From: Candidatus Nomurabacteria bacterium
Lineage (GTDB): Bacteria; Patescibacteriota; Saccharimonadia; Saccharimonadales; CAIOMD01
Direction of reading: 5' to 3'
Length of the DNA stretch: 64,000 bases
Assembly: GCA_020631975.1 (NCBI GenBank)
Contig: JACKGO010000002.1
Span: forward strand, 71,218 to 135,217
This document shows positions 1 to 55,513 of this stretch, in pieces. The position numbers and the translations under genes were made by a program. Numbering within the stretch: position 1 is the first letter of the stretch; the number at the start of each line of letters is the position of its first letter. Under the pieces are notes generated by a model that did not search any database, was not told where the DNA came from, and saw nothing but the letters and a program-made list of their open reading frames with translations.

Positions 1-495
<495 letters not shown>

Positions 496-12300: not shown

Positions 12301-12725
12301 TTTTTCTTACATGTATGAAGCGTAGCAAAATAATGCATTTTAGTCAAGTATAACGTAGTTATTATTACTACTTTCATCTGTATATTAGTTAATTATTTTG
12401 TTGTTATAAATATAACATATTTTCTGTATACATAATTAAGTTGTTTACATGTATGCTGCTTTCAGGTGCTTTTATGGTATGGCCGATAGATATTTCGTAG
12501 GACTACGTTTATACGTTCTAGCGAATCTCTATAGGTTGTTCATTATGCACACAACACTACAAAGATTAAGGTTTTTATTGTGTGTGGTTACGAAGCAGAA
12601 ACAACCACCACGGTTTGTTATTATGAGCGATAACTTACCCTTCAAAAACATATTAATACGTCTAGCAGTAGCTGTATTTAAAAAAATGCAGTTTGTATTA
12701 ATTACCTAAAATTATAAAAAAGTCA

Positions 12726-15608: not shown

Positions 15609-15610
15609 TG

Positions 15611-15974
15611 TAGCCAGATTGCCTATAAGCCGGGTTCTGTGATACGTCGATCATCTATCTAGGAATCGTATTGCTACGAATCTCAAGCGGGTTGACTTGG
15701 GTATAGCGGGCCACTAGCTTAAAAAGCACTACCCAATCCTTGCAGCCAACAGGGTTTACCCTCCTACTATGTCACCATAGTAAGCTGTGGGCTCTTACCC
15801 CACTCATTTCACCCTTACCTAGTATGCATTGCTGTCATAGTTAGGCGGTATCGTTTCTGTGGCACTTTCCCTAAGATTACTCTTGGTTGCCGTTAGCAAC
15901 TGTTGTGCCCTATACTGCCCGGACTTTCCTCCCGCATTTTTTTGAATGCAGGCGACCGACCGGCAATCTAGCTA
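15611..15974 (-). ncRNA. rnpB: RNase P RNA (bacterial type)
   Basis: The minus strand carries three conserved blocks. GAGGAAAGTCCGGGC is the rc of 15917-15931. AGGGTGAAATGAGTGGGGTAAGAGCCC is the rc of about 15789-15815. ACAGAACCCGGCTTAT is the rc of 15625-15640. A P1 helix can form between AGCTAGATTGCC (5') and GGCAATCTGGCT (3'). The ends are approximate. Confidence 0.9.
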
Positions 15975-16994: not shown

Positions 16995-17070
16995 TGGTCG
17001 GGGTGACAGGACTTGAACCTGCGACCTCACGGCCCCCAGCCGTACGCGCTACCAACTGCGCCACACCCCG
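16995..17070 (-). tRNA. tRNA-Pro (anticodon GGG), CCA encoded
   Basis: The rc reads CGGGGTG-...-TACGG-CTGGGGG-CCGTG-AGGTC-GCAGG-TTCAAGT-CCTGT-CACCCCG-A-CCA. This gives a clean cloverleaf of 76 nt. Confidence 0.9.
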
Positions 17071-17094: not shown

Positions 17095-17460
17095 ACTCTG
17101 GGCCGTGAGCCTCACGGTCACCTTTGGCGACCCCGTCGCAACATCATTCAAAACAAGTTTTGATTGAGTTGGCTCCCTTGCAACCCACCACCGGCGGGTT
17201 TCACCCCAGCCGTACGGTCACAACGGTCACAATCTTACTTGCAAGCTATGCATGCAAATTTGTTGCGACCCCACCTCAGCTTGGTCGCATTTGCGATCCA
17301 GGCTTCCGGTCTTGCGAATTGCCACAGGCAATTCTCACTACCAACTGCGCCACACCCCGATACGTACCAAAAACCCTGTCATCCGTTTGGATTCCTGCTG
17401 GAAAACCAAGTGGGTGTCCTCATTCTATACCCACGGGTATAGAGAATATTAGACTCCCCT
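17095..17460. other. GC-rich ORF-free block with tRNA-Pro fragments; probable structured RNA or element remnant
   Basis: Line 17161-17220 is 37/60 G+C, against about 40% in the background. All three plus frames are open (ORFs 17124-17462), which is a composition artefact. Many local hairpins are present, for example TGCGACC..GGTCGCA at 17264-17290 and CCGTGAG-C-CTCACGG near 17103-17117. The block contains the 25-nt and 13-nt tRNA-Pro copies. Confidence 0.5.
17338..17362 (-). repeat. exact 25-nt copy of the tRNA-Pro 5' end (acceptor and D-arm plus 2 upstream nt)
   Basis: 17338-17362 is identical to 17049-17073. A further 13-nt copy of the anticodon-arm 5' side (17204-17216) equals 17034-17046. 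Confidence 0.85.
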
Positions 17461-20507: not shown

Positions 20508-21757
20508 ACTTTTTCTACCTCTGTTATGGTTGAGAGTAAGCTCCGTAATTTTAGCATTGCTGTGTACGTCGCATATACATGCAGCGTACCTTCATCGGGA
20601 ACTTTGAGAATAGCTTGCTTTAACGCAGTATTAAGATTTTGCTCATAATCCTCTACTGGTATTTCGTCATACTGCAATCGTAGCGCCATATCAGCTGCAC
20701 GCATGCCAGCAGTACTTATACTCTTACCTTGTAGTGCTGAAAAATCTACATCCCACAACCATGATACGTCTCTACCGTCTGGATAATCATCATTGATGGC
20801 TACCATCGTATGATCATCCTTCACTGTTGTAGCCCCGATAAGTGCGTGTCTAAATCCACCAGGATTTTTTACAAGTTGCAAGATTATTCGTTTTTCACCA
20901 ATATATATACGTTCACCCCTACCGAATGCGGGTGTCACGTTCGTAATATTATGTACTATATCAGAAGGATGTAATCCAAGTGCCAAGCTGGTGGCAATAA
21001 CCGCACAAGCGTTTTGTGCGTTATATGTACCGTACAGCGACAATCTAATGTCATACTTAACCTCTTCGATTTTAACGACAATTTTGTCATCATTCACCCC
21101 TAATAGTTCTACTGTGGCGTTAGTGTTAGTGTTACTTATATCACCATGTAATTCGTCATCATTTCTATAAATTGCCCGTAAGTCATGGGACACACCAAAA
21201 AACATACTCTGAGACTTTGTTTGATTTCGCATTGCATAGACACGACTATCGTCTCGGTTTAAAATCACGACATCTGTAGTTTTACTTACTACGTTTTGTA
21301 AGAGCCGAGCTGTGTGATCTATCTCGCCAAAACGATCCATTTGATCGCGCATAACATTTAATATTACACTCATCCGTGGTGAAATATGTTCAACAAACTT
21401 TGATGCATACGCTTCGTCGAGCTCTATAATTGCTATGTCCTGCCGCAGCCTACCACCCCATGAAGCATCGGCAATAATCGCCGCCACGACGCCTCTCGTA
21501 AAATTGCTGCCTGTTGGGTTTGTGAGCACTTTTTTACCAGTGCCTTTTAGGACTGCAGATAACATTTTTGTTGTGGTAGTTTTACCATTGGTGCCACTAA
21601 TAACGACAACCCCTTCTGGTAACGTCTGCAACATTTTAGACAAAAAGTTAGGATATATTTTTTCTACTACGAGTCCAGGCAAGGCTGCACCTCTTTTATT
21701 GAGTAGCCTAAGACCAAGCAGAACACTCTTACCAATCCATAAACTAATTAATCGCAT
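20504..21757 (-). CDS. murT: lipid II isoglutaminyl synthase, Mur-ligase-type subunit MurT
   Basis: 417 aa with the Mur ligase P-loop GTNGKTTTT and a C-terminal DUF1727-like region (DGRDVSWLWDVDF). Confidence 0.85.
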   Translation of the reverse strand: MRLISLWIGKSVLLGLRLLNKRGAALPGLVVEKIYPNFLSKMLQTLPEGVVVISGTNGKTTTTKMLSAVLKGTGKKVLTNPTGSNFTRGVVAAIIADASWGGRLRQDIAIIELDEAYASKFVEHISPRMSVILNVMRDQMDRFGEIDHTARLLQNVVSKTTDVVILNRDDSRVYAMRNQTKSQSMFFGVSHDLRAIYRNDDELHGDISNTNTNATVELLGVNDDKIVVKIEEVKYDIRLSLYGTYNAQNACAVIATSLALGLHPSDIVHNITNVTPAFGRGERIYIGEKRIILQLVKNPGGFRHALIGATTVKDDHTMVAINDDYPDGRDVSWLWDVDFSALQGKSISTAGMRAADMALRLQYDEIPVEDYEQNLNTALKQAILKVPDEGTLHVYATYTAMLKLRSLLSTITEVEKV

Positions 21758-36838: not shown

Positions 36839-37717
36839 TTATAGGCCTAAAAGTACGGTGCTGTACCAGCTGCTTAGACTATCACCAAAAAATAAGGCTA
36901 AACTAGCGCCCAATATTAAAAACGGGCCAAACGGTATGTGCGACGTGACACTGAGTTTTTTAGATACGATCCCCGGTATTGCTACTGCCAAACCTACTAA
37001 GCTAGCTAAAAATACTGCAATAAAAACGTTTAGGGGCGACCCAGCTATAAGCCCAAGTAAAAACGCCAAGCGTACATCGCCAAAGCCAAGCCACGCTTTT
37101 GCACCGGTTTTATGTTGTTGCACAATATATGACACATAAAAAAGCGCAAAAAAACCAGCTAAATAAAGCACACCTGCAGCAATTGCATTAACCAGTGTGC
37201 TAGTTACACCGCTAAGCACTGCATAAAACAGCAAACTTGCGCCGTACGTAATAATACCTAGGTAAATAAGTTTAGATGGCAAAATGTACCATTTTGCATC
37301 GTATATCGCCAGCACGAGCAAAAATACTAGGGTAACAAGCCAGCCAGCAAGCAGTACCCAGCCATACTGCGCTGTACTAATGGGCCAAAAGATATAAGAC
37401 AAAGCAAATACTACTGCCGTTATAAGCTCTACAAGCGGATACTGGGCACTAATTGGCGCATGGCAGTAGCGGCACTTGCCTTTTAAAAGTAACCAGCTAA
37501 ATACCGGCACTAAGTCTTTGGCAGCAAGGGCGTGCTTGCAACTTGGGCACATGCTACGGCCATGCAGTATAGACAGTTCTTTACGTTTTGTGGCAGAGAG
37601 CTTTTTTGGGTCGCCATCGTCATTGAGCAGTTGGCGCAAGCGCCACACCCATGCGTTAATAAAGCTGCCCAATATAAGCCCAAGTACAAATAAATAGACT
37701 GTTAACAAAATGCTCAT
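36839..37717 (-). CDS. pilD: prepilin peptidase (A24 family)
   Basis: 292 aa and polytopic. It has two CxxC pairs (CPSCKH, CRYCH) and the conserved Asp-containing motifs of PilD. Confidence 0.88.
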   Translation of the reverse strand: MSILLTVYLFVLGLILGSFINAWVWRLRQLLNDDGDPKKLSATKRKELSILHGRSMCPSCKHALAAKDLVPVFSWLLLKGKCRYCHAPISAQYPLVELITAVVFALSYIFWPISTAQYGWVLLAGWLVTLVFLLVLAIYDAKWYILPSKLIYLGIITYGASLLFYAVLSGVTSTLVNAIAAGVLYLAGFFALFYVSYIVQQHKTGAKAWLGFGDVRLAFLLGLIAGSPLNVFIAVFLASLVGLAVAIPGIVSKKLSVTSHIPFGPFLILGASLALFFGDSLSSWYSTVLLGL

Positions 37718-37750
37718 CCTAAAAAGTATCTCACAGATATTGAGTAAAAT

Positions 37751-37781
37751 AAAAGAAACGGCTGCTATAACCGTTTCTTTT
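37751..37781 (-). terminator. terminator hairpin after the major pilin gene
   Basis: AAAAGAAACGG (37751-37761) pairs with CCGTTTCTTTT (37771-37781), with a T-run on the minus strand. It probably uncouples high pilin expression from pilD. Confidence 0.6.
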
Positions 37782-37798
37782 ATTTATATCTATACCCT

Positions 37799-38272
37799 TT
37801 AGCCTTCAATACACTGAAGTGCTTCGCCACTGCCCGATGTCTCTGTGACAAACCATATGGCAACAGTTCTTGCGCTTGTAACAAAGTTACAATCTCTACC
37901 AGTGGCTACGTACAGCGTGCCAGGAACTGCGCTGGCAGTAGTTGGCAAAGCAGTGACTGGCGCTACCGGTGTTGATCCGTTTAGTGTTACGGTTGAAGTT
38001 CCGCCTCCGGTAAGTGTAATCGTACCTGTCCCAGCGCCTACCGTTGGCGTTGTGCCGTTGTAGCTGGATCGATGATCACCTACTCCACCTGCGAGTAATT
38101 GTGCGTCATTTCTTATTGATGTATTCCTACTGTTTCTCTGAAGTGCCGGTACTGCCAAGAATACAATAAGCATTATTAAACCAGCAATTGCCAGCACAAT
38201 CAAAACTTCTATGATTGTAAACCCTTTATTTTCTTTTTTAAACATATGTTTGGTGCCCCTTCTTTTGAACAT
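37799..38272 (-). CDS. type IV major pilin (PilA-like)
   Basis: KGFTIIEVLIVLAIAGLIMLIVFLAV is a prepilin cleavage/methylation motif. A Gly/Thr-rich globular part with a C-terminal Cys pair follows. An alternative start at 38245 (MFKKENKG) gives a typical short leader. Confidence 0.8.
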   Translation of the reverse strand: MFKRRGTKHMFKKENKGFTIIEVLIVLAIAGLIMLIVFLAVPALQRNSRNTSIRNDAQLLAGGVGDHRSSYNGTTPTVGAGTGTITLTGGGTSTVTLNGSTPVAPVTALPTTASAVPGTLYVATGRDCNFVTSARTVAIWFVTETSGSGEALQCIEG

Positions 38273-38332
38273 GATTATGTTTACTTATAATACCTTAATA
38301 ATACTGTATTACCAATTAAATGCAAGCGTTTT

Positions 38333-39531
38333 TTAAGCGCCTAGCCCCTGATTAGCCAAGCCGTAAATAGGCAATAGCACCGCAGCAACAATAATAAGCG
38401 CCACGACACCCAGCACAATCATAAGTACTGGTTCTATGATGGTGTTGATGGTCTTAATTTGTTGATCTACTTCTTTTTCGTAATATTCGGCAGTTTTTTC
38501 TAGCATAGATTCTACCTGGCCAGATTGTTCGCCAATACGCAACATATTTGGCACTAATTCTAAGAAGTTCGGGTCGCCCTCGAGTGAATCTGCTAGGCTT
38601 TTACCACCTTTTACTTGGCTAATAGCGTGGTCTATAGAATCTTCTATGTATACATTATTTACCGATTTACTAGTAATTTCTAGCATCTGTAGCAGTGGTA
38701 CACCGCTGGCAACTAGCGTTGTACCAGTGCGGGCAAACGCGCCATGTACATCTTCATAAACAGTGGGCCAATAAGTGGTGCCTTCATTTTAAACTTGTCT
38801 ATAAATCGTTTGCCTCCAAGCGTGCGGGCCCATCTGCTACCAAAAAATACACCAAACCCTATTAAGATAATGACGACCCTCAGTAAGTAACAAGTGTGTT
38901 AGACATCCATAGTAGCACTTTAGTAATGAGTGGTAGTTCTGCACCCGGTAGGCTATCGTATAAAACTTTTACTTGCGGTAATACACCTACAAGCATAAAA
39001 CCAATGACCGCTAACATAACACCTACAACTACGAGTGGGTATACGAGTGCGCCACGTATTTTACCAAGAATTTCGGCGTCTTTTTCTTGCTGAAAAGCAA
39101 GCCGTTCAAGCGAGTTATCTAGCGTACCAGACACTTCACCTGCTGCCACAAGGCTCACAAACACCGTGCTAAACACTTTGGGGTGGGATGCTAGGGCGTC
39201 TGAAAGTTTTTGCCAGCTTCTACATCACCAATAACCTCTGCAATCACAATCTTCATGGGTTTGCTGCTAGTTTGGCGCTGCACGGTACGGAGTGATTGTG
39301 CCAGTGGTAAGCCAGCGCTAATAAGCGTGCTTAACTGGCGCGCAAACAGTATACGATCTTTTGCTTTAACTTTTTTGCCAAAGCCGCCTTCTTTTTCTAC
39401 TTTAATTTCTACAACTGCAAGGCCTTGGCCTTCTATGGCTTTGGCGGCGGCACGTTCGTTATCTGCCTGAACAGTAGAGGTAACTTTTGGCCAGTTTGCG
39501 GGTTGCGAGCGGTAAATGTAAATGTTGACAT
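38333..39531 (-). pseudogene. pilC: pilC (type IV pilus platform protein, GspF family) interrupted by four 1-nt frame defects
   Basis: The ATG at 39531 gives MSTFTFTARNPQTGQK. Continuing the PilC-like sequence requires frame changes near 39485-39488, 39203-39206, 38877-38885 and 38734-38742. The segments read ...VTSTVQADNERAAAKAIEGQGL...GKNF | SDALASHPKVFSTVFVSLVAAGEVSG...TLVTY | RVVIILIGFG...KMYMAR | FARTGTTLVASGVPLLQMLEITS...GLANQGLGA. Track ORFs 38880..39176 and 38333..38686 are two of the fragments. Confidence 0.85.
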
Positions 39532-39541
39532 ATAGGTGCGC

Positions 39542-40612
39542 CTAGCCTCTCATAAGCCTATCTAACTCTTCTAGGTCTACGGCATAATTACGTGCTTCTT
39601 CGTACGTAATTGTTCCGCTGTGAATAAGGCTCACTAGTGTTTTATCCATGCTTTGCATACCAAATTCTGCGCCAGTTTGTATAACAGCGTCTAGCTGATG
39701 CGTTTTGCCTTCACGCACAATGTTACGTACGGCCGGAGTTGCCACTAGTATTTCTGCAGCTGCAATACGGCCACCACCTATAGCTGGGATAAGCCGCTGC
39801 GAACAGATAGCCATTAAAATATTACTAAGCTGTGAGCGAATTTGTGGCTGCTGGTGTGGCGGGAACACGTCTATCATACGGTCTATACTTTGGGCGGCAC
39901 TGTTTGTGTGTAGCGTCGCAAATACCAAGTGGCCTGTTTCTGCAATTGTAATAGCAGCGGCAATCGTTTCTAGATCTCGCATTTCGCCAATAAGTACTAC
40001 ATCTGGGTCTTGGCGCAAGCTACTACGCAAGGCTGCACTAAAACTAAACGTATCGTAGTGAACTTCGCGCTGTACTATCACGCTTTTAAGGCTTTTATGG
40101 GTAAATTCTATTGGGTCTTCTATGGTAACGATGTGTTCTGCACGTTCGGTGTTAATTTTATGAATCATAGACGCCAAAGTAGTAGATTTTCCAGAACCAG
40201 TTGGCCCAGTAACCAATACTAAACCACGCGGGTATTCGGCAAATTTATTCACAATGTTTGGCAAGCCAAGTTGCTCAACAGATAAAAGCTCGCTTGGTAT
40301 TAAACGCAGCGCTGCTGCCAAGTTACCACGTTCGTGAAAGGCATTTACGCGGAACCGCCCTAAATCACCAAACGCAAAGCTAAAGTCAAATTCTTTGTCT
40401 TTTAGCAAAATCTGCTTTTGATCGTCATCTAGCAATGCAAACACTAAGCTTTCTACGGTTTCTTCTGTAAGAACATCTGTTCCACTTACTGCTTTTAAAG
40501 CACCATCTACACGCAACATGGGTTGCAAACCAACTTGTAAGTGGAGGTCACTGGCCTTTTTCTTGATTACTTCTTCTAGGAGTACTTCTATTCTTGGTTG
40601 TGCTACTTGCAT
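39542..40612 (-). CDS. pilT: type IV pilus retraction ATPase PilT
   Basis: 356 aa with Walker A GPTGSGKST, an AIRE-like and His-box region (TGHLVFATLHT) and a length typical of PilT. Confidence 0.9.
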   Translation of the reverse strand: MQVAQPRIEVLLEEVIKKKASDLHLQVGLQPMLRVDGALKAVSGTDVLTEETVESLVFALLDDDQKQILLKDKEFDFSFAFGDLGRFRVNAFHERGNLAAALRLIPSELLSVEQLGLPNIVNKFAEYPRGLVLVTGPTGSGKSTTLASMIHKINTERAEHIVTIEDPIEFTHKSLKSVIVQREVHYDTFSFSAALRSSLRQDPDVVLIGEMRDLETIAAAITIAETGHLVFATLHTNSAAQSIDRMIDVFPPHQQPQIRSQLSNILMAICSQRLIPAIGGGRIAAAEILVATPAVRNIVREGKTHQLDAVIQTGAEFGMQSMDKTLVSLIHSGTITYEEARNYAVDLEELDRLMRG

Positions 40613-40631: not shown

Positions 40632-42404
40632 TTATGCGCTATCTGATGCTGCAACGCGGTTGACTTCTGCTATAGAAGTTCGGCCACTTAATGCCTTAAA
40701 ATAGCCATCTTGCCGCATCGTTATCATCCCTTGCTGTTGTGCCATTTCTTGTATTTGGGCACTGGTAGCATGTTTGATAATTAAATCTTGTATTTCTTCG
40801 GTGACGCTAAAGACTTCGTAGAGTCCTAGGCGCCCTTTATACCCACCGGGTGTGATTGGTGAATCTTTACCCTTATACAAAGTATAAGCGTTTTGGTTAG
40901 CCAGTGGCAAGTCCCCGTAGCCTAAATCTTCTACAACGGCTGGTTTGGCTTCTTCTGTGGTTGGCAAAAAAGAGCCGATTGTCTCTGTTATGGCTTTTGC
41001 TTCTATGGGGCTAGATTCAGTTGGTTCTGGTTTATGCAAACGGCGTACTAAACGCTGGCCAATGACTGTCCGCACCGTACTGGCAATAAGAAACGGTTCT
41101 ATGCCCATATCGAGCAAACGGGGCAAAATACCAGCTGCACTATTTGTGTGCAGCGTAGACAGCACCAAGTGACCTGTAAGTGCAGCTTGCACTGCTAGGC
41201 TGGCCGTTTCTGCATCACGAATTTCCCCAACCATTACTACGTCTGGGTCTTGGCGCAAAATAGACCTTAGGCCACTGGCAAAGGTTAGCCCTACCTCACT
41301 ATTAACCTGTATTTGGTTAATGCCTTCCATTTTATATTCAACAGGATCTTCTAGAGTAACGATGTTAATTTCATCGCTTTTAATTTCTTGGATAAGCGCA
41401 TACATACTGGTTGATTTACCAGAACCAGTAGGCCCAGATGTTAAAATCATCCCATTAGGATTTTTAGCACCTTCACGAATCGTACGGAGGGCTCTACCAG
41501 AATAGCCCATGTCTTCTAGCATAAGGCTAGTGCCAGATTTATCTAGCAAACGAATAACACACTGTTCACCCCATACCACGGGCGAGATTGCAATACGCAG
41601 ATCAATAGCTTTGCCACCGGCCATAATACTAAACTGGCCGTCTTGTGGTATGCGATGTTCGTCTATTTTAAGGTTAGATAAAATTTTAATGCGCGATATA
41701 AGTGCTGGTTCGGTAGATTTTGGTAACTTCATAATTTCGCGTAACACGCCATCTATACGGCAACGAATTTTGAGTTCTTTTTCTAGTGGTTCTATATGAA
41801 TATCACTGGCGCGACTTTTGGCTGCATAATCCATAATTGCTGCCAAGGCTTTACTAATAGGCGAATCTTGAACAATGGTTTGAATACTCTTTGTCTTGGT
41901 AGCACCGGCGGCATCGTCTGACTTTTTTTGTTCGAGGGCTTTTTCTACATCCTTCGTAACATCAACACCATACTGTTTAATAACATCTTCTATACCCTGC
42001 TGGCTCGCCATGTACACTTTAAGCGGGCGACCAATTTTGTTAGATAAAAAGTCTACAGCCTGCACGTTGCTGGCATCTAACATAGCTACAACCAGCCTAT
42101 TTTGCATTTCGCCAAGCGGTACGGCCATGTAACGCTCTGCAACCTCTAACGGCAACAAAGACAGCACTTTAGGGTTTACGCGGGCAGTGCTAAGGTTTAC
42201 GTACGGTACACGGGTTACTTGGGCAATAGCTTTGGTAAGTTCTTCGCCGGTAACGTGTTCTTCGGTAACTAGTAACTGAAAAAACGGTTCACCTTTTTCT
42301 TTCGCTTTGGCGTGCACGGCATCTAGCTGGGCTTTTTCTATGAGACCGTTTTTAACCAACAGCTGCTCTACCTGTTTTTGAGTATCTTCTAGTAGTACGG
42401 GCAC
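40632..42404 (-). CDS. pilB: type IV pilus assembly ATPase PilB (GspE family)
   Basis: 590 aa with a GSPII_E N-terminal domain, Walker A GPTGSGKST, and LRQDPDVVMVGEIRD and TGHLVLSTLHT motifs. Confidence 0.9.
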   Translation of the reverse strand: MPVLLEDTQKQVEQLLVKNGLIEKAQLDAVHAKAKEKGEPFFQLLVTEEHVTGEELTKAIAQVTRVPYVNLSTARVNPKVLSLLPLEVAERYMAVPLGEMQNRLVVAMLDASNVQAVDFLSNKIGRPLKVYMASQQGIEDVIKQYGVDVTKDVEKALEQKKSDDAAGATKTKSIQTIVQDSPISKALAAIMDYAAKSRASDIHIEPLEKELKIRCRIDGVLREIMKLPKSTEPALISRIKILSNLKIDEHRIPQDGQFSIMAGGKAIDLRIAISPVVWGEQCVIRLLDKSGTSLMLEDMGYSGRALRTIREGAKNPNGMILTSGPTGSGKSTSMYALIQEIKSDEINIVTLEDPVEYKMEGINQIQVNSEVGLTFASGLRSILRQDPDVVMVGEIRDAETASLAVQAALTGHLVLSTLHTNSAAGILPRLLDMGIEPFLIASTVRTVIGQRLVRRLHKPEPTESSPIEAKAITETIGSFLPTTEEAKPAVVEDLGYGDLPLANQNAYTLYKGKDSPITPGGYKGRLGLYEVFSVTEEIQDLIIKHATSAQIQEMAQQQGMITMRQDGYFKALSGRTSIAEVNRVAASDSA

Positions 42405-45170: not shown

Positions 45171-47939
45171 TTACAACTTTGGTGGTACCACAAACATGGC
45201 ATCCACGGTATCGCCAGGAGTGCTTTGGTTTTTAAGGTATGGTTTAGCAAAATATAAATATGCTGGGTAGTTAATAATTTCTGCTGATTTGCCAGTATTG
45301 TTTGGCATGTTACCTCTATCTGCACAGTTTTGTATGCCCTTACTAACGTTGCAGTTTTGCTGCTCGTCACCTGGTGAGGTATTTAAGTACCTACTACCAC
45401 CGCCTCTTCTAAAATCTATAGTAGGTGCAGAAACCGCTCCATTTATATTTAAAGGCACCCTACAGGTTGAATGTATCTGATTTTGCCCTACCTTTGCAGC
45501 TGGGCCATAACCTGCGTATCCACAGGTATATATACCTGTTTTAGAAACTAAAATTGCATCTATGCGCTTAACATTGTTATCTACTACAATGGGACCTTCG
45601 GAAATAATTAAAAGCACACCAGTCTTTGCAGGATCCGTATAATTTGCTGCACTAGTAAGATTGATGACATCACCTACAATCATCAACATCTTATCTGTAG
45701 GATTGACGGCCGTTATTTTTTTGGTATATGTAGTTACTCCACTGCCAAAAGTATCACCCCAGCCTAATACGGGTATGCCACCATTATCTTTAGCCCAGTC
45801 AGGAACAGGCAATGAGTTATTGGTGGGAGTTAAAGAAGTAGCTTTTTTTATAATATAACAACCGTCTTCAGTAGCATTGAGCCCGCCACTCTCAATTTCA
45901 CCACATGTTTTTGGCAAATTCCCAGTTACATCTGTATACACTTGGTTGGCATTTTTACCTGATATAGCTTTTGAGCCAGAGGCATCTAGACCATCTGGTG
46001 GTACAGGGTTAATGGTACGAAACGCCGATGTATCTATAGTAACTGTACCAAACGCTAACGCTGCATATTGGTCTACACTACCCCTTTTAGTGGTACCACT
46101 AGGGTTATCTGTAGAATTAAAGCGTATATCGCCTGCTGTCGCATATATGTCATTACCGTAAAAACGAGCAAAGGGGACTTCATAGACGAGGATTTCACCA
46201 CATTTTTGTTGTTCATTATTAACACTTAGGCAATATTTAATACCGCTGAGGCCTGGGGCTGATTGGTTGAGCTGACCGATAATTGCTGCAGGAATTGGAA
46301 TAACATTTGTCGGCGGATTGCAGCCATAAGCCCCACCATACCAAAAACCAGTACCCGCAGGTGATGACACTCCACCAATGCTCCAACTAAATGGTATCCG
46401 TATCGGGGTCGACGGGCAACTTCCGCCGTTATTTACTTTTACATCAGCTTCGTTGATAGAAATGCTTTCGCTGCCCTTCTCGTAGCTAACAGTAGTAGGC
46501 ACATCACCGTCAGGGTCAATAATGTGCACACAATCACTAGTGCTCGTTGTAGCGTCACTATTCCAGCTTGTTGGTGTGAATGATAACGTATCACAATAAT
46601 TACCTACATTATTCATTACAATAGACCGTGCTGGTACCGTTCCAACACCTGTTTGTCTCTTGGTGCCTACGTTCGAATCAGTAGGTATATCGTATGATGT
46701 GTAATCATCTGCCATACCTGTATCACCCGTAACATCGCCGTCAATAGATTCATCGTTTTTATCTGGGCCAATGTTTTCTATAGAATGAGAATAACTAACC
46801 GTTTGCCCGGTAAAAGCTGTGCGTTGTCTGCTAGCACTACCAGAAATAGTCCATTTAGGGGGGTTGTTACATGGCGGCTGTTCATTCATCGGGAACACCA
46901 TGAGTGATAAATAATTTTGAGCATTAAGATCGTTAATAGTTAATTTGTAATTTATACCACGTTTAATTGTATACTTTAACCATGCAAAATTATCAGAACT
47001 CTCCCAATTACTTGCTTGGGTTGCGTCATGCAAAGGTTTGTATCTATTTGCGTCAGTTTTATCCCAACCTACCTCTTTAGCCCATTTGCTTGCAGATGTG
47101 CTTGTATCTATAGCTTTCATTCGATTGCCGGTGTCTTTTCTTGTAAGCCCAAAGTATAAATCTTTAAAAACATAACCATCAAGTACTTTACCCCTACCAT
47201 TATTTGATCCGTCATAATCAAATGTTTTTCGATTATAAGGAGCTCCAGGGCTGTTATTATCTTGTGCGCCCCTAGCATTGTTATCTGCATAATTATCTAT
47301 GTCATATGCGTAAATTATTCCTGTTTCATTAGAAGTCGAATAACAATTTAAATTCATATTGATATTTATGTCGGTGTATACAGAGCTGTCTGTGGAGTCT
47401 ATCGCTATGGGGACTGTATAATCATAGCTGAGACTGCCTACAAAACCGATATGCTTTGCTTCATCCACCTGTACCTTAAACTTCATACTGCTTTCGTCAG
47501 GAGGGCTATTCATTTTAATAGTAAACATGTATTTTGTTAAAGCTAACTGAGAATCATAAAAAGCGCCAGCAATATCATAAGAAACTTTAAATTCATTATC
47601 ATTGTCTTTACAATCACGCGTAGTGCTATTAATGCTATTCCCAAATATATCAATTCTATCAAATGTGTATTTAAATTTTTTCACACAATTTAAGTTATCT
47701 AGAATTACTTTAAATGTGCGATCTTTAGTTGTGGTGGTATTCCCATCCATGTACACCGCAAAAGACATTGCCGTATCTACGTGTTTAGAATCATCCCTGG
47801 CAAGCTTTATAGATATTGGTTCGTTCGACCACTGAGTACCCGGCCATTTTAAGGCCAATGCAGAATTACCAAATGCAAATAATGAAAAGCTTATTAACAA
47901 AAATAGTGATAATACTTTGTAGTGCATAGCTTTCATCAT
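45171..47939 (-). CDS. large secreted protein of unknown function, first-in-line with the pilus operon
   Basis: 922 aa with an N-terminal signal peptide (MMKAMHYKVLSLFLLISFSLFAFGNSALA). It is rich in Asn/Thr/Gly/Asp and has many Cys. No motif recognised. It overlaps the upstream gene by 4 nt and lies 52 nt upstream of pilM. Confidence 0.6.
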   Translation of the reverse strand: MMKAMHYKVLSLFLLISFSLFAFGNSALALKWPGTQWSNEPISIKLARDDSKHVDTAMSFAVYMDGNTTTTKDRTFKVILDNLNCVKKFKYTFDRIDIFGNSINSTTRDCKDNDNEFKVSYDIAGAFYDSQLALTKYMFTIKMNSPPDESSMKFKVQVDEAKHIGFVGSLSYDYTVPIAIDSTDSSVYTDININMNLNCYSTSNETGIIYAYDIDNYADNNARGAQDNNSPGAPYNRKTFDYDGSNNGRGKVLDGYVFKDLYFGLTRKDTGNRMKAIDTSTSASKWAKEVGWDKTDANRYKPLHDATQASNWESSDNFAWLKYTIKRGINYKLTINDLNAQNYLSLMVFPMNEQPPCNNPPKWTISGSASRQRTAFTGQTVSYSHSIENIGPDKNDESIDGDVTGDTGMADDYTSYDIPTDSNVGTKRQTGVGTVPARSIVMNNVGNYCDTLSFTPTSWNSDATTSTSDCVHIIDPDGDVPTTVSYEKGSESISINEADVKVNNGGSCPSTPIRIPFSWSIGGVSSPAGTGFWYGGAYGCNPPTNVIPIPAAIIGQLNQSAPGLSGIKYCLSVNNEQQKCGEILVYEVPFARFYGNDIYATAGDIRFNSTDNPSGTTKRGSVDQYAALAFGTVTIDTSAFRTINPVPPDGLDASGSKAISGKNANQVYTDVTGNLPKTCGEIESGGLNATEDGCYIIKKATSLTPTNNSLPVPDWAKDNGGIPVLGWGDTFGSGVTTYTKKITAVNPTDKMLMIVGDVINLTSAANYTDPAKTGVLLIISEGPIVVDNNVKRIDAILVSKTGIYTCGYAGYGPAAKVGQNQIHSTCRVPLNINGAVSAPTIDFRRGGGSRYLNTSPGDEQQNCNVSKGIQNCADRGNMPNNTGKSAEIINYPAYLYFAKPYLKNQSTPGDTVDAMFVVPPKL

Positions 47940-49647: not shown

Positions 49648-50139
49648 TTATTTTGGCAAAGATACGTTTGCTTTTTTAGCAATATGCACTATAGCTTTAT
49701 AAGCCTCTACAATTTGATCTTCTAAAGGTTGCTGCTGATACTTACTTACAGCTGGGTCTTTTTTGGCCAATATTTTATAAATTTCTTTCACATCGTTTTC
49801 TAGTGCTTCTAGGCGACCTTCTATATTTTCTAGGCGGTTATTCGTTTGCGCCTGGGCCGTTTCTATATTTGTTACACGAGATTCTAAACTACCTAATCTG
49901 CTTTCTACTTTATCTAAACGTTTGTCTACCATATCTAAACGTTTGTCTACCATATCTAAACGTTTGTCTACCTTATCTAAACGTTCGTCTACTTTATCTA
50001 AACGTTTGTCTACTTGTTCGAACCGCTCGTCTACCTGGGTTGCAAAATCACTAATTATTTCTGCTAAGCTATTGACTGCTTTGTTTATAGCTTTATCAAC
50101 AATTTCTTGTACGTCTTGTTTGGTCGCGTAGTCACTCAT
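49648..50139 (-). CDS. coiled-coil protein with tandem heptad repeats (VDKRLDK)
   Basis: 163 aa. It contains five or more consecutive 7-aa units encoded by 21-bp tandem repeats. Confidence 0.6.
   Translation of the reverse strand: MSDYATKQDVQEIVDKAINKAVNSLAEIISDFATQVDERFEQVDKRLDKVDERLDKVDKRLDMVDKRLDMVDKRLDKVESRLGSLESRVTNIETAQAQTNNRLENIEGRLEALENDVKEIYKILAKKDPAVSKYQQQPLEDQIVEAYKAIVHIAKKANVSLPK
49911..50016. repeat. 21-bp tandem repeat, about 5 copies (ATCTAAACGTTTGTCTACCAT and variants)
   Basis: Direct reading of 49911-50016. The repeat is in-frame within the coiled-coil CDS. Confidence 0.85.
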
Positions 50140-50254: not shown

Positions 50255-50467
50255 ATGACAATTATTGGCTTAAAAGAACTTTCACAAAACGCTGGTAAAA
50301 TTGCAGAGCGTGTAGCAAATGGCGAACGTTTTACTGTTGTTAAAAGGTCAAAGCCGGTGTTTGAGATATTGCCCCCTAGCACTACGGCCGATAACGAACT
50401 GGCTGAATGGACCAAGGACGCTATAAAACAATACCGCCCCGCTCTAGACGCTTTGAGTAAAAAGTAA
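50255..50467 (+). CDS. type II antitoxin, Phd/YefM-like
   Basis: 70 aa. The N-terminus MTIIGLKELSQNAGKIAERVANGERFTVVKRSKPVFEILP fits the antitoxin fold pattern. Its stop overlaps the doc start. Confidence 0.7.
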   Translation: MTIIGLKELSQNAGKIAERVANGERFTVVKRSKPVFEILPPSTTADNELAEWTKDAIKQYRPALDALSKK

Positions 50468-50859
50468 TGCGATACATTAGTGCAGACGATATTGTATTTA
50501 TTCATGATGTCATCATAGTTGAAACAGGCGGTGCTTTAGGGGTAAGAGAGCCTGGGCTGTTGCTATCGATAGCAGAAAAACCAAAGACTCGTTTTGGTAC
50601 GTACGATTTATACCCAGATATATACGTGAAAGCTGCCTCGCTATATGAAAGCATTTGTAATTACCATGTATTTATAGACGGTAATAAAAGAACGGCGGTA
50701 CTAACTATGTATCGGTTTTTATATTTAAATGGCTGTATATTGCTTGCAGATAATAAGACTATAGAAGAATACACTCTTTATATAGTAAACAATAAGCCAG
50801 ACATCACAGAAATTGCTAAATGGATAAAAAAGCATAGCAGAAAGGCAAAAAATATATGA
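50467..50859 (+). CDS. doc: type II toxin, Doc (Fic/death-on-curing family)
   Basis: 130 aa with the Fic-type motif HVFIDGNKRTA. Confidence 0.85.
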   Translation: MRYISADDIVFIHDVIIVETGGALGVREPGLLLSIAEKPKTRFGTYDLYPDIYVKAASLYESICNYHVFIDGNKRTAVLTMYRFLYLNGCILLADNKTIEEYTLYIVNNKPDITEIAKWIKKHSRKAKNI

Positions 50860-51938
50860 GTGTAAGTATTGGAATCGTTGGCCTACCTAACGTAGGTAAA
50901 AGTACCCTGTTTAATGCGTTAACCAATAATAATATATTGGCTGCAAACTACCCTTTTGCGACCATAGAGCCAAATACAGGGATTGTACCAATACCCGACC
51001 CACGGCTAGATGCGCTTGCCAAGCTTTATAACAGTAAAAAAATCATCCCCGCTACGGTAAAATTTACCGATATTGCCGGCTTAGTTGCCGGTGCCAGTAA
51101 GGGCGAAGGTTTAGGCAACCAGTTTTTAAGCCATATCCGTGAATGTGCAGCGATTGTGCAGGTGGTACGTGGCTTTACTGACCCAAATGTTGTTCATGTA
51201 GACAATACCCATAACCCAGCCAACGACATAGACGTCATAAACACCGAGCTTGTACTGGCAGATTTGCAAACACTAGATAAAGTATTGCCCCGATTACAAA
51301 AAGAAGCTCGCACTAACCCAAAATTGAAACCGCAGCTCGATATTTTAAAAGAAGTCCAAGCTATTCTTGACGCTGGCAAACCACTATATAGCGATGAAGG
51401 TTTAAGGTTAGAGGTTATAGGTTATAGAGAGCTGCAACTACTTACGGCAAAACCTATAATTTATTTGTTCAATGTAGATGAAGACAGCCTTAGTAATGCA
51501 GCTGTGCAAACAAAACTTGCACAAATGGTTTTACCAAACGCTGCCTTGTTTGTTAATGCCAAGCTAGAAGATGAACTACGGAGCCTAGACGAGGCCGAAA
51601 GAACAGAGATGCTGGCAGAATATGGTGTACAAGAATCTGGGCTTGTTCAGCTTATACACGCTGCTTATGAAACATTGGGTTTACAAAGCTACTTAACCGC
51701 AGGCGAAAAAGAAGTCCGAGCCTGGACAATAAAAAAAGGCGCTACTGCGCCGCAAGCTGCCGGGGTAATACATGGTGATTTTGAACGCGGCTTTATTGCC
51801 GCTGATGTTGTAGACTACCAAGATTTAATTGCAGCCGGGTCACTGGCAGCTGCCCGCGCTGTTGGTAAAGTGCGTACAGAGGGCAAAACTTACGTTATGC
51901 AGCCTGGTGACGTCGTAGAATTTAAGTTTAACGTCTAG
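50856..51938 (+). CDS. ychF: redox-regulated ATPase YchF
   Basis: 360 aa with G1 GLPNVGKST and a C-terminal TGS-like domain. Its ATG overlaps the doc stop (ATGA). Confidence 0.93.
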   Translation: MSVSIGIVGLPNVGKSTLFNALTNNNILAANYPFATIEPNTGIVPIPDPRLDALAKLYNSKKIIPATVKFTDIAGLVAGASKGEGLGNQFLSHIRECAAIVQVVRGFTDPNVVHVDNTHNPANDIDVINTELVLADLQTLDKVLPRLQKEARTNPKLKPQLDILKEVQAILDAGKPLYSDEGLRLEVIGYRELQLLTAKPIIYLFNVDEDSLSNAAVQTKLAQMVLPNAALFVNAKLEDELRSLDEAERTEMLAEYGVQESGLVQLIHAAYETLGLQSYLTAGEKEVRAWTIKKGATAPQAAGVIHGDFERGFIAADVVDYQDLIAAGSLAAARAVGKVRTEGKTYVMQPGDVVEFKFNV

Positions 51939-54452: not shown

Positions 54453-55513
54453 CGTAATGACTCAACAGCTTTGCAACACATAACATGTGGCTGTTCTACA
54501 CTGTAAGTGTACTAATCTAAACAGGAGAACAGCCACATGAGCTATTCTAGCAACCCATTACTACCTAAAGCGAGAGCAGAAGCCGTTAGGCTCGTCATTG
54601 AGCAAAGTATGCCTTTGACAATTGCTGCAAGAAGATGTGGAGTCCACCGCACAACCTTATGGCGTTGGCTACGCAAATGGGAGCTACTAAACCAGAATGT
54701 TCAGCTCACCAATGTCAACCGACCAAAAAGAAACTCAGATTCCCAAGTGCCCAGCAGCTTTCGTCTCGCAGCTTGTACGTGGCGTATACCTACCAACAGT
54801 AGCCGACCTCATTTCTTTGGTCGGGCAGTACCCAATATGGTTGTTGAACGCATTCGGTATTACCGCACTAAGTACAACCGTTGCGCAACAATTGTTCACG
54901 CCTACTGCAAACAAGAAGGTACCGAAGTGTCACTCAGTACGGTTCGTCGGGTATTGTACCGACTCGGGTTGGTGGTACGACAAAAGTGGCAACGTCGGTG
55001 GCGTCCGCCACTACCGCGCCCAGATGTACAGTGTCCAGGTGACTTCATTCAAACCGACACGGTACACCTGTATGATCACCGAACAAAAAAGCGGAGCTAT
55101 TTGTATACACTGGTTGATGTTTACTCTCGTTGGGCGTATGCCGAATACAGTACTGTGCTCAGCCAGCGTGTAGCCGCTGCAGTCATCCAGCGAGGCCAGG
55201 CCTATGCTCAGTTCCGTTTCAAAACCGTCCAGGCTGACAATGGACCCGAATTTAGTAAGAACTTTGAAGAGCTACTTAAAGCGCAAGGTACGACAGTACG
55301 TCACAGTAGAGTGCGACGACCGAATGACAATGCTCACATAGAGCGGTTCAACCGGACAATACAAGAAGAATGTATTGGTTCCACAAATCCATTCTCTAAA
55401 GAACTATATGGCAAGGTAGCAAACTACCTTGCCTACTACAACGAAGAAAGGCTACACTTGAGCTTAGAGTGTAGAACACCAGCGAGTGTTGCAAAGGTGT
55501 TGAACTAATTACG
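54453..55513 (+). mobile_element. IS481-family insertion sequence (1061 bp) with inverted repeats and a 6-bp target duplication
   Basis: The termini are CGTAAT...ATTACG. The left repeat (54453-54479) matches the reverse complement of the right repeat (55486-55513) in about 24 of 27-28 aligned positions with one 1-nt gap. The core TCAACA(G/C)CTTTGCAACAC is shared. GCATAA flanks both ends (54447-54452 and 55514-55519). Confidence 0.85.
54537..55508 (+). CDS. IS481-family DDE transposase (HTH plus rve integrase core)
   Basis: 323 aa with an N-terminal HTH (TIAARRCGVHRTTLWRWLRKW). The DDE context is IQTDTVHL, VQADNGPEF and HIERFNRTIQEE. The RBS is AGGAGAACAGCCAC-ATG. Confidence 0.88.
   Translation: MSYSSNPLLPKARAEAVRLVIEQSMPLTIAARRCGVHRTTLWRWLRKWELLNQNVQLTNVNRPKRNSDSQVPSSFRLAACTWRIPTNSSRPHFFGRAVPNMVVERIRYYRTKYNRCATIVHAYCKQEGTEVSLSTVRRVLYRLGLVVRQKWQRRWRPPLPRPDVQCPGDFIQTDTVHLYDHRTKKRSYLYTLVDVYSRWAYAEYSTVLSQRVAAAVIQRGQAYAQFRFKTVQADNGPEFSKNFEELLKAQGTTVRHSRVRRPNDNAHIERFNRTIQEECIGSTNPFSKELYGKVANYLAYYNEERLHLSLECRTPASVAKVLN

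What the first reader, a model, noticed from the sequence alone, without database searches (positions are those of the whole stretch)
38333..39531. pilC carries four independent 1-nt frame defects inside an otherwise intact type IV pilus locus
All other pilus genes are uninterrupted: pilB, pilT, pilM, pilN, pilO, pilD, the major pilin and four minor pilins. The platform protein PilC is required for assembly in studied systems, yet it needs four frame corrections to be read end to end, near 39485-39488, 39203-39206, 38880 and 38738. Each defect behaves as a missing base, and three lie in short A/T runs. None of the long genes nearby (2.9 kb, 2.8 kb, gyrA, gyrB, thrS) shows a single defect, so random sequencing error does not obviously explain the clustering. 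The alternatives are recent pseudogenisation (loss of piliation while keeping retraction and assembly ATPases), a second pilC elsewhere, local assembly or polishing error, or population heterogeneity.
Basis: seen in the sequence. Interest (0 to 1): 0.6.

Follow-up and report, generated by a model that had tools for sequence, protein, structure and literature searches.

The report
Broken pilC: probable local assembly error
The pilus platform gene pilC of this Saccharibacteria genome really is split by four missing bases, but comparison with 17 contigs of the same species suggests errors in a strain-variable 1.9-kb patch of the assembly, not a dying gene.

Summary
pilC (minus strand, 39531-38333) needs four single-base corrections, at 39485-88, 39203-05, 38880-82 and 38735-37. 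Repair gives a 400-aa T2SSF protein.

The pseudogene reading is not supported. Every conspecific contig compared at these four sites carries the extra base (16-17 per site). Six of them carry the window's own pilC haplotype, and their intact PilC differs from the repaired window protein by 2 residues.

The window matches one short-read strain almost exactly on both sides. It switches to another haplotype over about 37640-39575 (pilC, pilin, spacer). Its only private differences there are five one-base deletions, the fifth intergenic at 37790. One of them (38880) carries an adjacent base change. There is no stand-alone private substitution.

About 42.6 kb covered by at least three contigs shows no other window-private one-base indel. 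An error-rich assembly of the same species shows the same kind and density of deletions genome-wide.

Best reading (about 0.8): a local consensus or polishing artefact in a strain-variable cassette. Real recent inactivation stays possible (about 0.12) until reads are examined. Low interest.

The parts
38333..39531 (-). pilC (type IV pilus platform protein, T2SSF family), read in five frame pieces; 1199 nt as assembled, 1203 nt / 400 aa after four one-base repairs
   Evidence: Pfam PF00482 E 8e-59, two stretches. The repaired protein differs by 2 aa from intact P0123 and P0126.
39485..39488 (-). Defect 1: A4 (gene sense) where all 17 conspecific contigs have A5; codon ~16
   Evidence: 3+14 = 17 of 17 contigs
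39203..39205 (-). Defect 2: T3 where 16 of 16 conspecific contigs have T4 (AAAAACTTTTCAG); codon ~110. The error-rich assembly L004 has A4-C-T4 here, a different one-base loss in the same 10-nt stretch.
38880..38882 (-). Defect 3: 'TGA' where 17 of 17 contigs have 'TGGT' (Trp-Trp codons TGG TGG). It is one base lost plus one changed, creates a stop, and is not in a homopolymer.
38735..38737 (-). Defect 4: T3 where 17 of 17 contigs have T4 (GCGCGTTTTGCC); codon ~266
37789..37790 (-). Fifth window-private single-base loss. It is intergenic (pilin-pilD spacer, 'TATAG^ATATA' against 'TATAGTATATA') and lies outside pilC.
   Evidence: 8 gap placements among 9 covering contigs
37640..39575 (-). Strain-variable cassette (last ~30 nt of pilT, spacer, pilC, pilin, spacer, first ~80 nt of pilD). 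Here the window switches from the L005 haplotype to the L113/L117/L109 haplotype. All five private deletions lie inside it. Switch points are 39566-39583 and 37630-37651.
39532..39541 (-). pilT-pilC spacer, 6 nt longer than in most strains. It is a natural allele shared with the intact-pilC contigs L113-L117 and with L004, so it is not a defect.
37799..38272 (-). Major pilin (N_methyl), uninterrupted. It is identical to the pilin of L109 and has 0 nucleotide mismatches to L113-L117.
39542..40612 (-). pilT (retraction ATPase, 356 aa), intact. The identical protein is indexed in 57 blocks of the public collection.
40632..42404 (-). pilB (assembly ATPase, 590 aa), intact
36839..37717 (-). pilD (prepilin peptidase, 292 aa), intact

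Best explanation
The four frame defects are most likely errors of the assembled sequence, not mutations of the organism.

The window comes from a Saccharibacteria (TM7) population in which the pilC-pilin cassette is hypervariable between co-existing strains. In this assembly a ~1.9-kb patch (about 37640-39575) carries a different haplotype from its flanks. That patch alone carries consensus errors of the long-read type, deletions that are mostly one base lost from a short homopolymer.

The most likely route is one of three (inferred):
- a long-read consensus, or a long-read bridge across a short-read assembly bubble, that short reads could not polish because the dominant strain's reads are 7-25% divergent there;
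- a polisher mis-calling indels in a mixed-strain pile-up;
- low local coverage of the minority haplotype.

The true gene is then an intact 400-aa pilC, as in every other contig of the species.

Shown here: the defects, their privacy to this assembly, the haplotype switch and the deletion-only spectrum. Inferred: the sequencing and assembly route.
For: 1. All conspecific contigs compared at the four sites have the extra base (17, 16, 17 and 17). L004/L097 were excluded from that count as error-rich. The contigs come from ENA and JGI assemblies, Logan assemblies of public runs and NCBI MAGs.

2. Six contigs carry the window's own pilC haplotype and are intact. L113-L116 and L117 span the whole gene. 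L109 covers sites 3 and 4 and has the identical pilin. Their proteins P0123 and P0126 differ from the repaired window protein by 2 residues.

3. The window's private differences within 37640-39575 are five single-base deletions, one of which has an adjacent base change. There is no stand-alone private substitution. If neutral decay produced 3-10 substitutions per indel (my assumption from general knowledge), five indels out of five events would have a probability of 1e-3 to 6e-6.

4. One of the five deletions is intergenic (37789/90). The cluster therefore follows the patch, not the gene.

5. Outside the patch the window differs from L005/L104 at only 4 positions in 11 kb, with no gaps. Inside the patch it differs by 6-48 mismatches per 200 nt. 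The L113-type contigs show the reverse pattern. All deletions lie between the two switch points.

6. No other window-private one-base indel appears in 42.6 kb covered by at least 3 contigs.

7. L004/L097 (GCA_041402185.1, same species) shows about 1.8 indels per kb everywhere, about 17 deletions to 1 insertion. Most are in short homopolymers, and one is a deletion plus substitution like site 3. It has its own different one-base loss in the same AAAAACTTTT stretch as site 2. The window's patch has 5 in 1.94 kb, or 2.6 per kb.

8. Contigs in public assemblies of this species often break at this locus. Several contigs of 1.4-2.0 kb hold pilC and little else. L010 ends at 39354, L111 starts at 39448 and L109 starts at 38936.

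9. After a first inactivating hit, further neutral hits should scatter over the whole ~11.5-kb pilus locus. None is seen outside the patch.
Against: - No reads, coverage figures or assembly metadata are available, so the artefact is inferred and not observed.
- The rest of the window is of very high quality, so the error process has to be strictly local.
- Deletion bias and slippage in short runs are also features of natural mutation.
- Mosaic pilC-pilin haplotypes also occur in other assemblies of the species, for example L009. The haplotype switch by itself therefore need not be an assembly chimera.
- The source assembly was not found in any searchable collection, so its platform is unknown.
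Confidence: 0.8

Rival explanations
1. Real, very recent inactivation of pilC (PilC1 of pilus locus one) in this strain. The cell has lost assembly of this pilus, and the remaining genes have not yet decayed or are kept for a second pilus system.
For: The frame defects are unambiguous in the sequence, and one of them creates a stop codon. The rest of the 64-kb window shows no comparable errors, so a generally poor assembly is excluded. In TM7x a second locus encodes PilC2/PilB2 but no retraction ATPase, so pilT and pilD could stay under selection (PMC11623550).
Against: - Four hits fall in one 1.2-kb gene and none in the ~10 kb of pilB, pilM, pilN, pilO, pilD and pilin genes.
- There is no stand-alone private substitution alongside five private deletions.
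- A fifth deletion of the same kind lies outside the gene.
- The defects are absent from all 16-17 conspecific contigs per site, including six of the same haplotype.
- The fragment proteins are not on record in the public gene index searched.
- The flanks differ from another strain's contig at only 4 positions in 11 kb, leaving little time for four independent events.
- pilC is intact in the 80 loci listed from other species' genomes, mostly Saccharibacteria. T4P inhibition reduces host attachment and growth in TM7i (PMC9894109).
Confidence: 0.12
2. Real population heterogeneity. Frameshifted pilC alleles exist as minority variants, or different cells each carry a different single defect, and the consensus stitched several of them into one sequence that no cell carries.
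For: The locus is the most polymorphic segment of the compared region, and several haplotypes of the species are found in public data. The window agrees with a different haplotype group at 38612 and 38619 than in the rest of the patch, which hints at a mixed consensus.
Against: No independent contig shows even one of the four defects. Short runs of 3-5 bases are not known contingency tracts. The intergenic deletion is not explained.
Confidence: 0.05
3. Programmed recoding or phase variation. The ribosome or RNA polymerase slips at the four sites, or the runs act as on/off switches.
For: All four shifts are in the same direction (-1), and three lie in A or T runs.
Against: Conspecific genes, including the same haplotype, are simply in frame at these sites, so the shift is not conserved. 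The runs are only 3-4 nt. Site 3 is not a run and places a TGA stop in the incoming frame. Four consecutive programmed shifts in one gene have no precedent known to me (own knowledge).
Confidence: 0.01

Closest known systems
PilC1, the platform protein of type IV pilus locus one in Saccharibacteria (Nanosynbacter lyticus TM7x; PMC11623550)
   Same: The gene neighbourhood holds the same components (gene order in TM7x was not compared): pilM, pilN, pilO, pilB, pilT, pilC, pilin, pilD, then further pilins. The repaired protein is a 400-aa T2SSF protein with two PF00482 stretches.
   Different: As assembled here the gene is split into five frame pieces. Identity to the TM7x protein itself was not measured. 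The nearest hit to another species' representative genome was 80% identical.
Residual indel errors of long-read or hybrid (meta)genome assemblies that break genes into false pseudogenes (own knowledge: widely reported for nanopore assemblies, with deletions in homopolymers dominating)
   Same: The spectrum is deletion-only, three of the five deletions are in short homopolymers, and the density (2.6 per kb) is like that of the error-rich assembly GCA_041402185.1 of the same species (about 1.8 per kb). The defects are absent from independent assemblies.
   Different: The errors are confined to one 1.9-kb patch of an otherwise clean 64-kb window. This needs a local cause, such as failed polishing or bridging in a strain-variable cassette, which is inferred and not shown.
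Phase-variable PilC of Neisseria (own knowledge: a poly-G tract in the signal-peptide region switches expression by frameshift)
   Same: The gene name is the same, and one-base changes in a homopolymer alter the frame.
   Different: Neisseria PilC is the PilC/PilY1 tip adhesin, not the T2SSF platform protein. It has one long G tract. Here there are four sites in runs of 3-4 nt or in no run, so it is not comparable.

Membership tests
T2SSF / PilC platform protein of type IVa pili | Two T2SSF (PF00482) repeats in a polytopic protein of about 400 aa | tested here: met
   The repaired 400-aa protein scores PF00482 E 8e-59 in 2 stretches. Intact conspecific proteins carry PF28597 plus PF00482.
T2SSF / PilC platform protein of type IVa pili | Encoded next to pilB/pilT ATPases, prepilin peptidase and pilins | tested here: met
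   The order pilMNO-pilB-pilT-pilC-pilin-pilD-pilins is seen in the window and in conspecific loci, with Pfam calls.
Genuine pseudogene | Reading frame disrupted in the deposited sequence | tested here: met
   Four one-base losses and one in-frame TGA.
Genuine pseudogene | The disruptions exist in the organism's DNA (read-level or independent-assembly support) | tested here: not met
   None of the 16-17 conspecific contigs per site carries any of the defects. Fragment proteins are not on record. Reads from the source sample cannot be examined with these tools.
Genuine pseudogene | Signs of relaxed constraint: private substitutions alongside indels, and decay of functionally dependent neighbours | tested here: not met
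   There is no stand-alone private substitution in the patch. All other pilus genes are full length.
Programmed ribosomal frameshift or transcriptional slippage | The shift site and the need to shift are conserved in relatives | tested here: not met
   All relatives, including the same haplotype, are in frame.
Phase-variable contingency locus | A long simple-sequence tract (typically 7 or more) whose length varies between strains | tested here: not met
   The runs are 3-4 nt here and 4-5 nt in all others, with no length variation among the 16-17 contigs per site. Site 3 is not a repeat.
Local long-read or polishing consensus artefact | Deletion-dominated, homopolymer-biased differences private to one assembly | tested here: met
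   Five of five private events are one-base deletions, three of them in homopolymers. The spectrum matches that of L004.
Local long-read or polishing consensus artefact | Errors coincide with a region of different data support (haplotype switch, strain-variable region, assembly break point) | tested here: met
   All five lie between the switch points 39566-39583 and 37630-37651. Contigs of the species break here.
Local long-read or polishing consensus artefact | Reads contradict the consensus at the sites | not testable with these tools
   No reads or assembly metadata are available, and the source record was not found.

The most novel reading that the evidence does not exclude
The defects are real. 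A wild Saccharibacteria strain swapped in a foreign pilC-pilin cassette by homologous recombination. The recombination tract was copied by an error-prone, -1-frameshift-prone polymerase (DinB-like). That left five clustered single-base deletions and knocked out the platform protein of pilus locus one, while the rest of the machinery stayed intact.
Probability: 0.04. Interest if true: 0.55.

Novelty: not a real feature. Interest (0 to 1): 0.08.

Why it matters
If the defects were real, this would be a natural knockout of the pilus platform protein in an episymbiotic Saccharibacteria. In cultured relatives type IV pili drive motility and host attachment (PMC9894109, PMC11623550).

As it stands, the value is practical.
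- It is a worked example of a false pseudogene created where strain heterogeneity defeats consensus or polishing, so this genome's pilC should not be scored as lost.
- It shows that the pilC-pilin cassette is a recombining, hypervariable module in this species. That is the real biological signal at this locus.

Tried and rejected
- **Source genome by DNA pattern.** An exact 43-nt pattern across defect 3 was scanned in genome contigs and gave 0 hits, so the source genome is not among the species representatives.
- **Fragment proteins.** Exact look-ups of the two fragment ORFs a gene caller would report (117 aa and 98 aa) found nothing on record.
- **Metagenome scan.** A conserved 32-mer inside pilC gave only 3 contigs. 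All are intact at the sites they cover.
- **Second pilC in the window.** tblastn of the repaired protein found none; the only other hits are the internal repeat of pilC itself.
- **Second pilC elsewhere in the genome.** This could not be tested.
- **Origin of the related assemblies.** A literature search for JAWKST, GCA_041402185, SRR27686864, SAMN08389183, GCA_040773605 and JAXGVU returned nothing.
- **The 6-nt longer pilT-pilC spacer as a further defect.** Rejected, because it is shared with the intact-pilC contigs L113-L117.
- **Distance of each deletion to the nearest haplotype-distinguishing SNP.** Rejected as uninformative, because SNP density in the patch is about 1 per 14 nt.
- **Programmed frameshifting and phase variation.** Rejected on the in-frame alleles in relatives and the short run lengths.

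Full report
**What is in the sequence**

On the minus strand, between pilT (39542-40612) and the major pilin gene (37799-38272), lies a 1199-nt gene. Its translation has to change frame four times, always in the same direction: frames 2>1>0>2>1, each shift equal to one missing base. Joining the pieces gives a 400-aa protein. It matches Pfam T2SSF (PF00482) at E 8e-59 in two stretches, so it is the platform protein PilC.

The defects are as follows, in gene sense:
- A4 at 39485-39488.
- T3 at 39203-39205.
- 'CTGAGGG' at 38880-38882. This is one base lost and one changed, and it creates a TGA.
- T3 at 38735-38737.

The neighbouring pilus genes all have the lengths seen in relatives. These are pilM, pilN, pilO, a 76-aa ORF, pilB, pilT, the pilin, pilD and four downstream pilin-like ORFs.

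**Organism and relatives**

The identical PilT protein is indexed in 57 blocks of the public assembly collection. A scan of species-representative genomes with the repaired PilC returned 80 loci, mostly from Candidatus Saccharibacteria / Saccharimonadales MAGs. All have full-length matches, 53-80% identical.

The locus holds the same set of components as 'T4P locus one' of the cultured Saccharibacteria TM7x: PilC1, PilB1, PilT, PilM1/N1/O1, PilD and pilins. TM7x also has a second locus with PilC2 and PilB2 (PMC11623550). Chemical inhibition of pilus extension blocks motility and host attachment in TM7i (PMC9894109).

**Comparison with the same species**

I collected conspecific contigs (94-99.9% nucleotide identity) covering about 54 kb of the window. 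They come from ENA, JGI, Logan and NCBI assemblies.

At each of the four pilC sites every contig has one more base than the window: 17, 16, 17 and 17 contigs. The error-rich assembly described below was excluded from this count.

In 42.6 kb covered by at least three contigs, the only window-private one-base indels are these four and a fifth at 37789/37790. The fifth lies in the pilin-pilD spacer. All other indels are one of three kinds: polymorphisms shared with some contigs, in-frame length variants, or singletons in the other contig.

**The nearest haplotype**

A search with the repaired protein found a 90%-identity cluster of 13 intact 400-aa sequences. Two of them, P0123 (four Logan contigs) and P0126 (NCBI GCA_040773605.1), differ from the repaired window protein by only 2 residues.

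Their DNA (L113-L117) shares the window's pilC haplotype, including the 6-nt longer pilT-pilC spacer. So does a Logan contig carrying the window's exact pilin (L109). All are intact at every site they cover.

Against this group, the window's differences inside pilC fall into two kinds:
- The four frame defects.
- A few substitutions, each of which is shared with some other contig (39300 with L117; 38612 and 38619 with the L002 group).

The window therefore has no stand-alone private substitution in pilC.

**The mosaic**

Mismatch counts per 200 nt and exact positions give the following picture.
- Outside the patch, the window differs from L005/L104 (one short-read scaffold) at 4 positions in about 11 kb, with no gaps. 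It has 0 mismatches from 41800 down to 39600 and from 37600 down to 35400.
- Between about 39575 and 37640, the window differs from L005 by 6-48 mismatches per 200 nt.
- In that same interval it matches the L113/L117/L109 group with 0-3 mismatches per 200 nt.
- That group in turn differs from the window in the flanks, by 2-3% in pilT and pilB and about 10% in pilD.
- The switch points are 39566-39583 (end of pilT) and 37630-37651 (start of pilD).
- All five private deletions lie between them.

**Interpretation**

A real pseudogene would need four independent deletions in pilC and a fifth just outside it. It would also need no accompanying substitution and no hit in the ~10 kb of pilus genes that depend on PilC. 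All of this would have to happen on a backbone that differs from another strain's contig at 4 positions in 11 kb.

I assumed 3-10 substitutions per indel for neutral decay (general knowledge, not measured here). On that assumption, five deletions out of five private events has a probability of 1e-3 to 6e-6. Placing all five in the 1.94-kb patch by chance has a probability of about 2e-7.

The pattern is instead what consensus errors of long-read data look like. The assembly GCA_041402185.1 of the same species (L004/L097) shows about 1.8 indels per kb everywhere, roughly 17 deletions to 1 insertion. Most are in short homopolymers, and one is a deletion plus substitution like site 3. These break pilN, pilC, the pilin, pilD and thrS. 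It also has its own, different one-base loss in the same AAAAACTTTT stretch as the window's site 2. The window's patch has 2.6 deletions per kb.

Contigs in public assemblies of this species frequently end in or around pilC. Several contigs of 1.4-2.0 kb hold pilC and little else, and contig ends fall at 39354, 39448 and 38936. This is expected for a strain-variable bubble.

The most economical explanation is that this patch was filled or called from lower-accuracy data. It could have been a long-read bridge, or a long-read consensus that short reads of the dominant and locally divergent strain could not polish. It could also have been mis-polished in a mixed pile-up. The platform and pipeline are inferred. 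I could not find the source record.

**Caveats**

- Mosaic haplotypes also occur in other assemblies of the species, for example L009. The haplotype switch could therefore be a natural recombinant and not a chimera.
- Natural mutation is also deletion-biased.
- Without reads, a real and very recent inactivation cannot be excluded. I give it about 0.12.
- Programmed frameshifting and phase variation are rejected. Relatives of the same haplotype are simply in frame, the runs are 3-4 nt, and one site is not a run.

**Verdict**

The pseudogene interpretation is not supported. This is not a real feature of the organism in the most likely reading, so interest is low.

The real biology worth noting is the sharply bounded, hypervariable, recombining pilC-pilin cassette of this Saccharibacteria species.

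Noticed in passing
window 37640-39575: The pilC-pilin cassette is a hypervariable, recombining module in this species. Haplotypes differ by 7-25% here against about 0-1% in the flanks. The switch points are sharp: the last ~40 nt of pilT and the first ~80 nt of pilD. Different contigs carry different combinations (L005, L009, L002, L113, L004). The platform protein co-varies with the major pilin.
   Followed up: partly
L004 and L097 (NCBI GCA_041402185.1, JAWKST010000001.1): This public assembly of the same species carries about 1.8 indels per kb, roughly 17 deletions to 1 insertion. They split pilN, pilC, the pilin, pilD and thrS into fragments. Its gene content should not be trusted for pseudogene calls.
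   Followed up: partly
window 39532-39541: The pilT-pilC spacer exists in two alleles that differ by 6 nt. This changes the distance between the GAGG at the end of pilT and the pilC start codon from about 8 nt to about 14 nt. Both alleles occur with intact pilC.
   Followed up: partly
window 1-493 (-), 15610-15971 (-), and tRNAs at 16995, 25212, 28262, 28337, 28750, 30704: The window begins inside a 16S rRNA gene (its 5' 528 model positions). It also holds RNase P RNA (class A) and six tRNA genes, which account for most of the larger non-coding gaps.
   Followed up: yes
window 45171-47939 (-), especially 46200-46600: The 922-aa protein with no Pfam match, encoded upstream of pilM, has a stretch that is highly divergent and indel-rich between strains. 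A 3-nt in-frame length variant lies at 47731.
   Followed up: no
window ~50255-50859 (+) and 54537-55508 (+): A PhdYeFM-antitoxin/Fic pair sits directly upstream of, and overlaps, the ychF-type GTPase gene (50856-51938). An rve-family integrase gene lies at 54537-55508. The Pfam calls come from identical proteins in conspecific contigs.
   Followed up: no
window 12293, 12680-12685, 17222, 21119, 49911: Natural length polymorphisms within the species: A5/A6 and T-run variants in the spacer upstream of the ComM-like gene (called at 556 aa or 497 aa in different contigs), a 9-nt repeat unit at 17222, a 6-nt repeat at 21119 and a 21-nt in-frame variant at 49911.
   Followed up: no
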